From the NCBI GenBank assembly GCA_964016885.1, contig OZ024764.1, forward strand, positions 2,666,001-2,730,000: 64,000 nucleotides of DNA, in the 5' to 3' direction. Positions 517 to 56,255 of this stretch are shown piece after piece. The translations under genes and the position numbers were made by a program. This DNA comes from Eledone cirrhosa. Its lineage: Eukaryota. Position 1 is the first letter of the stretch. Every line of letters starts with the position of its first letter. The notes beneath the pieces are model-generated. The model saw only the letters and a list, made by a program, of their open reading frames with translations. It did no database searches and had not been told where the DNA came from.

Positions 517-797
517 TAATATTCAGAATATTAATAAATGAGAAATATTATCATAACCAAAGTATATATTGTATTATATATATTTCAAAGGGACAATGGT
601 GTTTAAGTACGTTTTCATCCTGCCACTACAGGAATTGAAGATTCAAGTACCTTAGCGGGATGTTGCATATCCAATCTCTCATATATTTTATCTGATGAAA
701 ACGTACTGAAACCCCATTGTACCTTTGAAATATGTATAATAAAATATATACTTTGGTTATGATAATATTTCTCATTTATTAATATTTTGAATAATAT
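517..797. mobile_element. Penelope-like foldback relic with hammerhead-like motif
   Basis: About 100-bp inverted arms (517-619 / 693-797). Plus strand reads TATATTTTAT-CTGATGA-stem II-GAAA-TATGTA-TA-ATAAAATATA. Flanked by (TA)n. Confidence 0.6.
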
Positions 798-1186
798 TAT
801 AGTTAGTATATATATATATATATATATATATATATATATATATATATATATATATGAAAAACAAGGGGAGAAGAATACTGCATTGTTGCACATGGATTAC
901 ATATTATAAAATTAGTCCCTCATCAGTGATTTGCCAACCTTCATATATATAGTTCCCTTGCAAGCAGGGAAAAGCGGACGTAAAATGATGATGATGATGA
1001 TATATACTAACTATATAAATATAGTTAGTATATATATACTAACTATATATAGTTACTATAAATATAGTTAGTATATATATACTATATATATGTGAAGTAA
1101 TTCCGTCGGAAAAGTCCAGGAAAAAAGAGTGCTCTATGTAGGTAACAGAGCTTAATAGTTATGTAATAAACAACATAAGGCAATTA

Positions 1187-1247
1187 TTCCATTTACCAGT
1201 GGTTTCTTAAAAGCAAAAACATTTTGCTTTCAATCATCAGAACGGAA
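1187..1247 (-). ncRNA. type I minimal hammerhead ribozyme motif (Penelope-type)
   Basis: TTCCGTT CTGATGA TTGAAAGCAAAA-TGT-TTTTGCTTTTAA GAAA CCACTGG TA AATGGAA: intact core, three stems, GUA cleavage triplet. Confidence 0.75.
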
Positions 1248-1668
1248 AAATCCTGGCGTATTTATTGACTTTGGATTTTAAAAACTATATATATATATAT
1301 ATACTAACTCTATATAGTTACTATATATATATATATTAGCTATATAAATCAGTTGAATGTGTATTTGTTAGCTATAGAGTTCCAAACAGCCTACATTTAT
1401 CAAAGCTTGAGATAGGATCAAATGTAGCAGTATCATGAAATATACTTAGCCAATTTATACCAAATAATATTTCCTAACAGCAGATGGTTGGTGTAATGTT
1501 GGCTTTGTGATCTTTTGGTGTGATGTATGGCTTTCTTTTCTATTTTTATTTTCTTCACAGCAGTCTATTGAGAGCCTCTAGTTAGTATTTAGTGTTTAAT
1601 AAATGACAAACAAAGGAATGATATGGTAACAAACACAAAAGGCCCAGAACTCCTTGAGGAATGTGGTA

Positions 1669-52500: not shown

Positions 52501-54790
52501 TAGGTGTCACAAAAAGTACCCAGTCCACACTGTAAAGTGGTCATGTAGGTGTCACAACAAAAAGCACCCAGTCCACACTGTAAAGTGGTCATGTAGGTGT
52601 CACAACAAAAAGTACCCAGTCCACACTGTAAAGTGGTCATGTAGGTGTCACAACAAAAAGCACCCAGTCCACACTGTAAAGTGGTCATGTAGGTATCACA
52701 ACAAAAAGCACCCAGTCCACACTGTAAAGTGGTCATGTAGGTGTCACAACAAATAGTACCCAGTCCACACTGTAAAGTGGTCATGTAGGTGTCACAACAA
52801 AAAGTACCCAGTCCACACTGTAAAGTGGTCATGTAGGTGTCACAACAAACAGCACCCAGTCCACACTGTAAAGTGGTCATGTAGGTGTCACAACAAAAAG
52901 CACCCAGTCCACACTGTAAAGTGGTCATGTAGGTGTCACAACAAAAAGCACCCAGTCCACACTGTAAAGTGGTCATGTAGGTGTCACAACAAAAAGCACC
53001 CAGTCCACACTGTAAAGTGGTCATGTAGGTGTCACAACAAAAAGCACCCAGTCCACACTGTAAAGTGGTCATGTAGGTGTCACAACAAACAACACCCAGT
53101 CCACACTGTAAAGTGGTCATGTAGGTGTCACAACAAACAACACCCAGTCCACACTGTAAAGTGGTCATGTAGGTGTCACAACAAACAACACCCAGTCCAC
53201 ACTGTAAAGTGGTCATGTAGGTGTCACAACAAACAACACCCAGTCCACACTGTAAAGTGGTCATGTAGGTGTCACAACAAAAAGCACCCAGTCCACACTG
53301 TAAAGTGGTCATGTAGGTGTCACAACAAAAAGTACCCAGTCCACACTGTAAAGTGGTCATGTAGGTGTCACAACAAAAAGCACCCAGTCCACACTGTAAA
53401 GTGGTCATGTAGGTGTCACAACAAAAAGTACCCAGTCCACACTGTAAAGTGGTCATGTAGGTGTCACAACAAAAAGCACCCAGTCCACACTGTAAAGTGG
53501 TCATGTAGGTGTCACAATAAAAAGCACCCAGTCCACACTGTAAAGAAGTCATGTAGGTGTCACAACAAAAAGTACCCAGTCCACACTGTAAAGTGGTCAT
53601 GTAGGTGTCACAACAAAAAGCACCCAGTACACACTGTAAAGTGGTCATGTAGGTGACACAACAAAAAGTACCCAGTCCACACTGTAAAGTGGTCATGTAG
53701 GTGTCACAAAAAGTACCCAGCATTCACTGTAAAGTGGTCATGTAGGTGTCACAACAAAAAGTACCCAGTCCATACTGTAAAGTGGTCATGTAGGTGTCAC
53801 AACAAAAAGTACCCAGTCCACACTGTAAAGTGGTCATGTAGGTATCACAACAAAAAGTACCCAGTCCACACTGTAAAGTGGTCATGTAGGTGTCACAACA
53901 AAAAGTACCCAGTCCACACTGTAAAGTGGTCATGTAGGTGTCACAACAAAAAGCACCCAGTACACACTATAAAGTGGTCATGTAGGTGACACAACAAAAA
54001 GTACCCAGTCCACACTGTAAAGTGGTCATGTAGGTGTCACAACAAAAAGTACCCAGTACACACTGTAAAGTGGTCATGTAGGTGTCACAACAAAAAGCAC
54101 CCAGTCCACACTGTAAAGTGGTCATGTAGGTGTCACAAAAAGTACCCAGCACTCACTGTAAAGTGGTCATGTAGGTGTCACAACAAAAAGCACCCAGTCC
54201 ACACTGTAAAGTGGTCATGTAGGTGTCACAAAAAGTACCCAGTCCACACTGTAAAGTGGTCATGTAGGTGTCACAACAAAAAGCACCCAGTCCACACTGT
54301 AAAGTGGTCATGTAGGTGTCACAACAAAAAGTACCCAGTCCACACTGTAAAGTGGTCATGTAGGTGTCACAACAAAAAGCACCCAGTCCACACTGTAAAG
54401 TGGTCATGTAGGTATCACAACAAAAAGCACCCAGTCCACACTGTAAAGTGGTCATGTAGGTGTCACAACAAATAGTACCCAGTCCACACTGTAAAGTGGT
54501 CATGTAGGTGTCACAACAAAAAGTACCCAGTCCACACTGTAAAGTGGTCATGTAGGTGTCACAACAAACAACACCCAGTCCACACTGTAAAGTGGTCATG
54601 TAGGTGTCACAACAAAAAGTACCCAGTCCACACTGTAAAGTGGTCATGTAGGTGTCACAACAAACAACACCCAGTCCACACTGTAAAGTGGTCATGTAGG
54701 TGTCACAACAAAAAGCACCCAGTCCACACTGTAAAGTGGTCATGTAGGTGTCACAACAAAAAGCACCCAGTCCACACTGTAAAGTGGTAA
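49556..54790 (+). repeat. 48-bp satellite (about 109 copies) with higher-order structure
   Basis: Same unit; diagnostic variants recur at offsets 1911 and 1719 bp. Confidence 0.95.
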
Positions 54791-55664
54791 TGAAAATATT
54801 GAAAACAACTAACAGCGAGATATTCAAAACAACGAACAGCGGAGGACACATTTCGCACCTTTCCGACAGACAACCTTTCCCCCACCCCGAAAAAAAACCC
54901 CATTTGATGGATGTGAATCCGAAATATATAGGGACAATTAAATCTCTCCCAAGGTAACTCTCTCTCGTGTTGTTATTTTTATTTTTATCCTTTACACTCT
55001 TTCCTTCATTCCTCTACACATCTTATACATGCCATGCATCTCAACGTACACCCACTTACATCTCTCTCTCCACCACCGGACCTTGTTACCCGGAGATTTA
55101 CCCATTTGCATTGTCGAGGCTTCCAAACGACTTAAAGAAATTTACCTTATTATTCCACAATGCTTCAAGCAAACTTCAATACTCTCTTATATATATATAT
55201 ATGTATGTAAACATATATATATATGTATATGTAAACATATATATATATATACATATATATATACATATATATATATATATATATATAAACATATATATAT
55301 ATATATATATAAACATATATATATATATATATATATATAAACATATATATATATATATATATAAACATATATATATATATATAAACATATATATATATAT
55401 ATAAACATATATATATAAACATATATATATAAACATATATTTATATATATATATATATATATATATATATAAACATATATATATATACATATATATATAT
55501 ATATACATATATATATATATATACATATATATATATATATATAAACATATATATATATATACATATATATATATATATAAACATATATATATATATATAT
55601 ATACATATATTTATATATATATATATAAACATATATATATATACATATATTTATATATATATAT

Positions 55665-56255
55665 ATATAAGTATGTACACGTACATACATATATGTATAC
55701 AGACGTACAGTAGTATGTATATATATATATATACATACATGCACACATATATATATGCACGTATGGATTCACCGAACATTTATTATAATGCTCGGTGTGT
55801 TTGTAAACACATCCCGTATTAAGCCGTAGTGTCTAGCAACCACCGTTGCTCGTTTGTTCAACACTGACAAAGGAACGCTGTACTAGTTTCAAGCTTGTTA
55901 GCTATCGTCAGCAACGTATACCTTCCTGCCAGATTGTTGAACGTATATACTTACCTTATGCATATTAACGGCTGAGTAGCCCAATATGCATATCGAGTGG
56001 GTTAATCGGCCGGGTGTACCGAAAACGATAAACGGAAAAAATTAAACGATATTTCATTTCCCACTCTTAGTACGGCTGTTACTTAAATATAAGTATGTAC
56101 ACGTACATACATATATGTATACCGACGTACAGTAGTATGTATATATATATATATACATACATGCACACATATATATATGCACGTATGGATTCACCGAACA
56201 TTTATTATAATGCTCGGTGTGTTTGTAAACAAACCTCCCGTATTAAGCCGTAGTC
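55665..56255 (-). mobile_element. Penelope-like partial tandem repeat with an intact hammerhead (55875-55917)
   Basis: About 165 bp duplicated about 420 bp apart. ACGTTG CTGACGA TAGCT-AACA-AGCTT GAAA CTAG TA CAGCGT on the minus strand. Confidence 0.72.

What the first reader, a model, noticed from the sequence alone, without database searches (positions are those of the whole stretch)
683..55917. About a dozen Penelope-type hammerhead ribozyme motifs from several families in one 64-kb locus
Seen: CTGANGA-stem II-GAAA-short or palindromic stem III-UH-stem I motifs with intact cores at about 683-750(+), 1187-1247(-), 7240-7310(+), 23343-23410(+), 24175-24236(+, mirrored on -), 36772-36820(+) and 55875-55917(-). 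Mutated or partial versions occur at 3997-4084, 4588-4675, 22571-22648, 24906, 28453-28495, 35851-35862 and 36928-36990. Stem sequences differ between sites yet pair. Established: minimal type I hammerheads with tiny palindromic helix III mark Penelope-like element pseudo-LTRs and cleave mainly as dimers. Inference: many distinct PLE or retrozyme families target the (TA)n tracts here. No PLE RT/GIY-YIG ORF is visible, so these are non-autonomous relics.
Basis: partly seen in the sequence, partly recalled or inferred. Interest (0 to 1): 0.75.

Follow-up and report, generated by a model that had tools for sequence, protein, structure and literature searches.

The report
Hammerheads ending Penelope-like jumping genes
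The self-cutting RNA motifs are real: they sit at the 3' ends of truncated Penelope-like jumping genes and of small ribozyme repeats, a known kind, but they occur at this density across the genome sample, likely several hundred thousand copies, and their cutting is untested.

Summary
Observation confirmed. A paired type I hammerhead descriptor finds 10 intact motifs in the window; shuffles give 0-2. Four families (1186/23344, 7240, 24167, 36773) are the 3' ends or pseudo-LTRs of Hydra-clade Penelope-like elements, whose ORFs lie elsewhere in the genome, 14 of 150 scored copies with open frames of 708 aa or more. Two families are non-coding tandem retrozymes (422 bp; 591 bp). The 591-bp one is not a mutated relic: it carries the known compensatory U3-A8 core in 44 of 44 units and is very young. 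Five families have no ORF link yet. The locus is ordinary: 400 kb sampled elsewhere holds 67 motifs, extrapolating to about 0.5 million (0.23-0.84 million), above the largest count I found in print (120,000, axolotl). Inverted insertions pair one short and one long 3' end in 26 of 28 cases. Cleavage is untested; no RNA data were available. The scan found the same 591-bp element and its two fixed ends before on other DNA of this genome (e1-8673517). Verdict: new members of known kinds; notable mainly for number.

The parts
421..805 (.). Family B inverted insertion: + arm with intact hammerhead 684-746 and short 3' end; - arm (421-619) cut inside the core, with long 3' end
   Evidence: 1,051 first-look candidates, best 40 at 96-100%; no ORF link found in the 14 loci fetched for it
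837..945 (-). 5'-truncated fragment (core strand only) of a repeat whose longer copies have the cleavage-site and GAAA blocks upstream of CUGANGA (scrambled order); not a type I motif
   Evidence: order read by eye; earlier notes e1-8670900
1087..1285 (-). Family A: 3' end/pLTR of Hydra-clade PLE, intact hammerhead 1186-1248, long end into (TA)n
   Evidence: 88% over 207 nt to the pLTR of a full-length element
3757..5096 (-). Family H: 2.3 head-to-tail units of a 591-bp non-coding retrozyme; intact U3-A8 hammerheads at 4585-4678 and 3994-4087; long end at (TA)n
6800..7345 (.). Family C inverted insertion: + arm intact hammerhead 7240-7310; - arm split by a 165-bp repeat insertion (about 6938-7102)
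   Evidence: 96% to the 3' end of a Hydra-type ORF element in L086
11830..12020 (+). Family J relic (core at 11892; G12A)
   Evidence: ends approximate
22200..22440 (+). Family J copy, cut at the 5' strand of stem I
22470..22770 (-). Family K old relic (A9G; other copies have a canonical core)
   Evidence: best other copies 78-84% identical
23134..23505 (+). Family A, older subfamily: 3' UTR end with intact core 23344-23408 (mismatch at 10.1-11.1)
   Evidence: 2,565 first-look candidates; 10 of 20 fetched loci hold fragments of the Hydra ORF
23972..24270 (.). Family D inverted insertion; hammerheads 24167-24238+ and about 24075-24138-; both arms share one stem I mismatch; long end on - arm
   Evidence: 90% to the pLTR directly upstream of a Hydra ORF in L141
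24769..24965 (.). Family E inverted insertion; intact hammerhead 24853-24907- with 4-bp helix III; + arm lacks most of the 5' strand of stem I
   Evidence: no ORF link found
28378..28793 (-). Family G: one decayed 422-bp retrozyme unit (G8A core at 28453-28495)
35568..35927 (.). Family I inverted insertion; both arms hold only the 3' half of the hammerhead
35971..36865 (+). Family F: last 900 bp of the 3' UTR of a second Hydra-clade PLE, canonical hammerhead 36773-36820
   Evidence: 94% over 903 nt to L059, which has the Hydra-type ORF end upstream; 40 of 40 best hits 100%
36905..36990 (-). Relic of a sister family of B (G12A, shortened stem II)
55700..56254 (-). Family G: 1.3 units of the 422-bp tandem retrozyme; intact hammerhead 55873-55919
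   Evidence: L097 is a 10-kb array of 23 full units at 90-94% identity
60510..60546 (-). 3'-half fragment of another hammerhead family

Best explanation
These are type I hammerhead motifs at the 3' ends of short, 5'-truncated insertions in (TA)n tracts; four families are ends of Hydra-clade Penelope-like elements, two are tandem non-coding retrozymes, and all were likely written into the genome by Penelope-like reverse transcriptase-endonuclease proteins. Shown: the motif lies 20-250 nt upstream of each family's fixed 3' ends; each family has a short and a long end; head-to-head insertions nearly always pair one of each. Inferred: the protein nicks both strands of a (TA)n tract, each nick primes reverse transcription at one of two fixed sites downstream of the ribozyme, copying usually stops after 100-900 nt, and the two cDNAs are joined head to head. 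Even the shortest copies therefore keep the ribozyme, so its density is a by-product of where copying starts, not of selection on each copy. Inferred from the literature: the ribozyme would cut tandem transcripts into units, as a dimer through the palindromic helix III or with protein help; single truncated copies are probably inert, while tandem arrays (families G, H) would yield unit-length, possibly circular RNA.
For: Enrichment over shuffles. Covariation in the B superfamily: 7 of 9 stem II pairs change on both sides, 94.9% of cells pair, 0/500 shuffles reach it, slid partners give 35-55% (sequences were picked by the descriptor, which tests only the core-proximal pairs of stem II). Helix III interior is self-complementary at 46 of 56 symmetric positions in 31 distinct strings, null mean 21, max 33; dimer duplexes are -2 to -13 kcal/mol while monomer hairpins are +0.4 to +6 for 9 of 10. 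ORF link: 8 of 8 full-length loci have the family A motif 1.8-2.0 kb behind the stop; the 710-aa protein has RWK, DKT, YRDD, CxCX5C, CxxC and CxH, folds with pLDDT 92 and matches telomerase RTs best. Families C, D, F each adjoin a Hydra-type ORF in one locus. End asymmetry 26 of 28 scorable pairs, of 32 found; in family D, 0 of 24 inverted partners of long-end copies reach past the short end. Both arms of the window D copy share a stem I mismatch, so an imperfect ribozyme was inserted; Frangieh 2024 found cleavage not needed for insertion in vitro.
Against: No cleavage, transcript or circle was observed. Only 1 of 9 motifs folded beats its shuffles (1186, z -2.9); the others have z -0.25 to -1.3 and most minimum-energy folds are not the active shape. 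Families B, E, I, J, K have no ORF link in the loci fetched, and G and H have no identified autonomous partner. C, D and F links rest on one locus each. Pfam recognised neither RT nor GIY-YIG in the 714-aa frame, and the fold search listed no GIY-YIG nuclease among the rows shown. 2 of 28 pairs were symmetric. A single-strand resolution step, not twin priming, could also leave a tail at one end (Craig 2021).
Confidence: 0.85

Rival explanations
1. Most copies are independent non-autonomous mini-elements (retrozyme or SINE-like) transcribed and mobilised on their own, not truncated ends of long PLE transcripts.
For: True for G and H (tandem, no ORF). In family E, 40 hits picked with a junction-spanning query are 100% identical and 37 of them have the inverted arm at the same offset, which could mean the palindrome is copied as a unit. 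Five families lack an ORF link.
Against: A, C, D, F continue into long 3' UTRs and ORFs in longer copies; truncation points vary widely in D and H; the E query selects for that junction, and E also occurs with other arm lengths (86-1,365 nt between cleavage sites).
Confidence: 0.25
2. The motifs are kept by the host as RNA-processing or regulatory elements of this locus.
For: 10 intact cores in 64 kb.
Against: Density equals the genome sample; intact copies belong to young or abundant families; older copies decay in the core (A9G, G8A, G12A); orientation is mixed.
Confidence: 0.04
3. Chance matches in AT-rich, microsatellite-rich DNA.
For: Weak folding z-scores; one sub-threshold Rfam hit; a few loose singletons in the genome sample may be false.
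Against: Shuffles give 0-1 C3-G8 hits per window; every site searched successfully is a multi-copy family; compensatory changes.
Confidence: 0.01

Closest known systems
Hydra clade of C-terminal EN+ Penelope-like elements (Craig et al. 2021, PMC8557442; passages, section 11 and part 2 of 59 of the supplement read)
   Same: RWK, DKT, CxCX5C linker, CxxC/CxH, (TA)n insertion, canonical hammerhead near the 3' end with short palindromic helix III, partial tandems, inverted 5'-truncated arms, tail on one end. The supplement lists one octopus Hydra family with its hammerhead and many Hydra hammerheads with U-U next to the core, as in families E and G here.
   Different: Published elements are mostly under 3 kb and few outside cnidarians; here the unit is about 4.3 kb with a 1.8-2.0 kb microsatellite-rich 3' UTR, at least five divergent Hydra-type ORFs occur (31-70% identity), one gives 24,311 first-look candidates, and tails are 60-165 nt instead of 30-40.
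PLE minimal hammerheads (Cervera and de la Pena 2014, PMC4209133; parts 1-2 of 4 read)
   Same: Many families per genome, mostly single truncated copies, pairs 100-700 bp apart on opposite strands, long helix II, palindromic helix III, and a U3-A8 core variant (about 1,300 hits in Schistosoma).
   Different: Reported counts are 2,000-9,000 per genome; the estimate here is 25- to 400-fold higher, by a different descriptor. Most families here lack G10.1-C11.1.
Metazoan non-LTR retrozymes (Cervera and de la Pena 2020, PMC7229834, passages; Li et al. 2026, bioRxiv 10.64898/2026.07.22.740005, part 1 of 5)
   Same: Non-coding tandem units with one type I hammerhead each, low GC; G (422-466 bp) is in the reported 150-450 bp range; proposed PLE mobilisation.
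   Different: H is longer (591 bp), has the U3-A8 core, and inserts as short inverted tandems with two fixed ends; circular RNA was shown for coral, mussel and axolotl, not here.
Anolis PLE PAc in vitro system (Frangieh et al. 2024, PMC11167929; part 2 of 4 read)
   Same: AT-rich target nicking, two internal RT start sites bounding the tail, hammerhead in the pLTR.
   Different: Poseidon clade; it showed protein-assisted cleavage that was not needed for insertion; the strict pairing of one short with one long end was not stated in the part I read.

Membership tests
Type I hammerhead ribozyme | Core CUGANGA / GAAA / UH (or U3-A8 covariant) in type I order | tested here: met
   10 sites; U3-A8 is a natural, active covariant per Perreault 2011 (passages)
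Type I hammerhead ribozyme | Stems I-III pair, with compensatory change | tested here: met
   for the B superfamily (25 sequences); other families checked for pairing only
Type I hammerhead ribozyme | Rfam Hammerhead_1 at gathering score | tested here: not met
   best 31.7 of 34 bits at 36775; 230 lower-scoring rows were not shown
Type I hammerhead ribozyme | Self-cleavage after H17 | not testable with these tools
   no bench assay; no RNA holder listed
PLE hammerhead (dimer type) | Short, self-complementary helix III | tested here: met
   family E (24853) has a stable 4-bp helix III and could act as a monomer
Penelope-like element | Hammerhead-bearing end joined to a telomerase-like RT ORF | tested here: met
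   families A, C, D, F
Penelope-like element | ORF link for families B, E, I, J, K | tested here: inconclusive
   none in the loci fetched (B 14 x 10 kb; E 2 x 10 kb plus chance copies; I 4 and K 5 x 3 kb; J chance copies only)
Penelope-like element | C-terminal GIY-YIG endonuclease | tested here: inconclusive
   VY-x-YVG-like strands and conserved R, H, E, N read by eye; one homologue carries PF01541; no Pfam or fold hit on the protein itself
Penelope-like element | Partial tandems, inverted truncated arms, tail at one end | tested here: met
Hydra clade | RWK, DKT, CxCX5C linker, CxxC and CxH, (TA)n target | tested here: met
   all in the full-length ORF; CxCX5C in the three partial ORFs scanned against Craig 2021
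Hydra clade | Phylogenetic placement with published Hydra RTs | not tested
   no tree built; reference proteins not fetched
Non-LTR retrozyme | Non-coding tandem units, at least two consecutive with a complete type I hammerhead | tested here: met
   H in the window and 9 of 10 loci fetched hold more than one unit; G array in L097
Non-LTR retrozyme | Expressed as circular RNA | not testable with these tools
   only contigs of runs of unrecorded kind

The most novel reading that the evidence does not exclude
This genome carries roughly half a million hammerhead motifs, the largest load I found reported, produced mainly by a radiation of Hydra-clade PLEs and their retrozyme parasites; and these elements integrate by an obligatory two-site mechanism in which the two target strands prime at two different fixed positions of the RNA, a rule that the short 591-nt U3-A8 retrozyme makes directly testable in vitro.
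Probability: 0.5. Interest if true: 0.55.

Novelty: new member of a known kind. Interest (0 to 1): 0.33.

Why it matters
The kind is known, down to the clade, the target and the core variant. What adds value is scale and tractability: a genome with about one hammerhead per 6-10 kb, young families, intact 710-aa Hydra proteins and a short non-coding passenger gives a ready test bed for two open questions, namely what PLE hammerheads do and how PLE proteins make inverted, one-tailed insertions. If many copies cleave, host transcripts that run through them would be affected; that is untested.

Tried and rejected
Rfam scan: flooded by microRNA models on (TA)n; one sub-threshold hammerhead hit. Genome search with family C returned nothing, not even the window itself, probably because its words are too common; no evidence. 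I first called the 714-aa ORF Naiad, then Neptune; both dropped on domain order and motifs. A scan for non-circularly permuted hammerheads with plain stems found none in the window and 2 in 400 kb against 2 in three shuffles; it cannot see a split stem II, so it does not test the scrambled family at 837-945. CTGANGA hits at 2104-, 17275+ (inside the Tc1/mariner-like frame), 21303-, 27696-, 36731- and 56874+ (YADD codons of an RTE-type RT) were rejected as chance. Sequencing runs: no RNA holder listed; contigs of 4 of the 6 runs showed the 591-bp unit closing on itself in 2 runs, which a tandem array explains as well as a circle. Low-stringency search for a partner of G or H among about 1.3 Mb of fetched loci gave only low-complexity hits. 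PDB sequence search and Pfam gave nothing for the Hydra ORF. RNAalifold mis-registered stem I, so the structure was named by hand. Lunse et al. (PMC5785218) is not held; the dimer-cleavage result is taken from a review's passages (PMC6765202). Paper searches: searches found no count or study of hammerheads for a genome like this; an octopus repeat annotation has no occurrence of 'hammerhead' or 'ribozyme' (PMC13282606, passages). Subscription papers, Repbase/Dfam and all supplements except part 2 of Craig 2021 were not seen and may already list these families.
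Full report
1. The observation. All seven 'intact' sites are present with paired stems. A strict type I descriptor finds 7 motifs; 600 dinucleotide shuffles (whole window, 1-kb and 250-bp blocks) give a mean of 0.02 and never more than 1. Allowing a stem I bulge gives 8, and allowing the U3-A8 core gives 10, with shuffles at 0-1 for the C3-G8 core and 0-2 for U3-A8. 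Homology to motifs from other loci adds decayed or cut copies at 555-, 6880-/7095-, 11892+, 22200+, 22573-, 24895+, 28439-, 35568-35927, 36922- and 60510-. In all about 11 type I families. Rfam sees only 36775, just under threshold.

2. Is the locus special? No. The window is G000:C25:2666001-2730000 of a 3.0-Gb animal genome. Forty 10-kb stretches at round-number positions that I chose, roughly in proportion to contig size, hold 67 C3-G8 motifs in 400 kb; 18 of 40 stretches have at least one; 26 of the 67 lie in two tandem arrays; ten shuffles give 0-2. The window has 1.25 per 10 kb, the sample 1.68. Bootstrap over stretches extrapolates to 0.49 million motifs (0.23-0.84 million); without the two arrays about 0.3 million. 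This is an extrapolation from 0.013% of the genome, and a few loose singletons may be false. The largest counts I found in print are 120,000 retrozyme copies in axolotl (PMC7229834, section title and passages) and 2,000-9,000 PLE motifs per genome (PMC4209133).

3. What carries them. Family A (1186-, 23344+): 10 of 20 loci fetched around the best copies hold fragments of one ORF. A 43-aa piece gives 24,311 first-look candidates, and 14 of the 150 scored lie in open frames of 708 aa or more. In 8 of 8 such loci the family A motif lies 1.8-2.0 kb behind the stop; in 6 it is also found upstream as a pLTR or inverted arm, with a tandem period of about 4.3 kb. The protein has RWK, DKT, YRDD, a CxCX5C linker and terminal CxxC and CxH, the diagnostics of the Hydra clade (PMC8557442 section 11); its model (pLDDT 92) matches telomerase RTs best. 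Family F: the window's 35971-36865 is 94% identical to the last 900 bp of a 3' UTR behind a second Hydra-type ORF end (L059). Family C ends a third (L086: 600-aa truncated frame, 1.25-kb UTR, motif, (TA)n, and an inverted arm at the 5' break). Family D is the pLTR directly before the start of a fourth (L141, 66-75% to the first). C, D and F rest on one locus each. Families B, E, I, J and K were not linked in the loci fetched. The genome also holds PLEs with a Neptune/Nematis-type linker, not tied to any window family. The window's own long frames are RTE-type LINE RTs and a Tc1/mariner-like transposase piece (the LINE and mariner labels are from recall, Pfam gave RVT_1 and a weak HTH_Tnp_Tc3_2).

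4. Two retrozymes. G is a 422-bp non-coding unit: 1.3 units at 55700-56254, a decayed unit at 28378-28793, and elsewhere an array of 23 full units filling 10 kb, 15 with motifs that pass the descriptor. H is a 591-bp non-coding unit, 2.3 copies in tandem at 3757-5096. The 40 best genome hits are 100% identical by rounding. H inserts in (TA)n as 1-5 tandem units, often with an inverted arm (7 of 10 loci fetched). Two other U3-A8 families turned up in the fetched loci.

5. Anatomy and mechanism. Most families with enough copies have two fixed 3' ends behind the cleavage site: H 77/242 nt, A 36-41/99-109, F 52/153, C 43/133, E 21/89-92, B 59/152. In head-to-head insertions one arm has the short and the other the long end in 26 of 28 scorable pairs (32 found, 4 without a scorable end); independent choice would give at most half. 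In family D, none of 24 inverted partners of long-end copies passes the short end. All five inverted pairs in the window (B, C, D, E, I) follow the rule. A tail at one end only is described for PLEs, and two RT start sites bounding the tail were mapped for an Anolis PLE. I infer that both strands of a (TA)n tract are nicked, each primes at one site, and the cDNAs are joined after early termination; junctions show 0-6 nt overlaps or gaps. Because priming starts just behind the ribozyme, even 100-bp copies keep it. That explains the density without any function of the single copies.

6. Are they ribozymes? Structure is under selection at the family level: 7 of 9 stem II pairs in 25 B-superfamily sequences show double changes, and slid partners lose pairing (relatedness inflates the shuffle control). 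Helix III is palindromic beyond what the descriptor asks (46 of 56 positions, null 21) and is favourable only as a dimer in 9 of 10 window motifs, fitting dimer cleavage as reviewed in PMC6765202. Against activity of single copies: only 1 of 9 folds beats its shuffles, most families lack G10.1-C11.1, PLE motifs cut poorly in vitro, and an inverted pair transcribed through would form a long hairpin (inference). No RNA evidence was available.

7. Novelty. Hydra PLEs with hammerheads, (TA)n targeting, tails, retrozymes and U3-A8 cores are all in print; the Craig supplement lists an octopus Hydra family and its motif. From recall the repeats here resemble octopus genomes; I did not test this. Earlier notes of this scan describe the same 591-bp element and its paired ends (e1-8673517), seen after my own analysis, and are not independent evidence. 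What remains unusual is the estimated number, the breadth of the Hydra radiation and the strictness of the short-plus-long rule. Verdict: real, new members of known kinds, interest 0.33.

Noticed in passing
window 837-945 (-); longer copies L094:2690-2850, L129:770-940: Truncated piece of a repeat in which the cleavage-site and GAAA blocks precede CUGANGA (SGC-like order, stem II not paired directly); matches the scrambled hammerheads that earlier notes tie to Naiad elements. Related copies in at least 6 of the 40 sampled stretches.
   Followed up: partly
L139:2008-2187: A near-complete U2 snRNA copy (Rfam 102.7 bits) sits between the two arms of a family D inverted insertion, suggesting the PLE RT switched onto U2 snRNA.
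   Followed up: partly
L056:4110-5890; window 61974-62675: The Hydra element's 1.8-kb 3' UTR is full of (TA)n/(TG)n tracts and holds a decayed internal copy of its own hammerhead; it would spread its own target sequence. The window's 60-62.8 kb TA-rich block matches it weakly (68%, low complexity).
   Followed up: no
L023, L065, L072, L096, L105; L073: Two further families with a fixed U3-A8 core (5 and 3 loci); not present in the window.
   Followed up: no
L084:243-3389: Another tandem retrozyme array, 310-bp period, 11 intact motifs.
   Followed up: no
window 56444-57832 (+), 58141-59973 (-), 37450-38594 (+): RTE-type LINE RT frames with a PHD-like finger after the RT (Pfam RVT_1, PHD above cut-off); two lie tail to tail.
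   Followed up: partly
window 16500-17900 (-): Broken Tc1/mariner-like transposase.
   Followed up: no
window 7830-14236, 40827-54792 and others: Long minisatellites (48, 101, 112 bp; one of 254 copies over 12 kb) whose units match pieces of the local SINE-like repeats.
   Followed up: no
window 22774-23115 and 23544-23961: Two copies of a 350-bp SINE-like repeat, also in (TA)n, in opposite orientation around the family A copy; a short inverted stub at 23544-23575.
   Followed up: no
L056:6558-7982, L065:220-2808, L096: A second PLE group with a CX4CxxC linker (Neptune/Nematis type), frequent in the genome sample.
   Followed up: no
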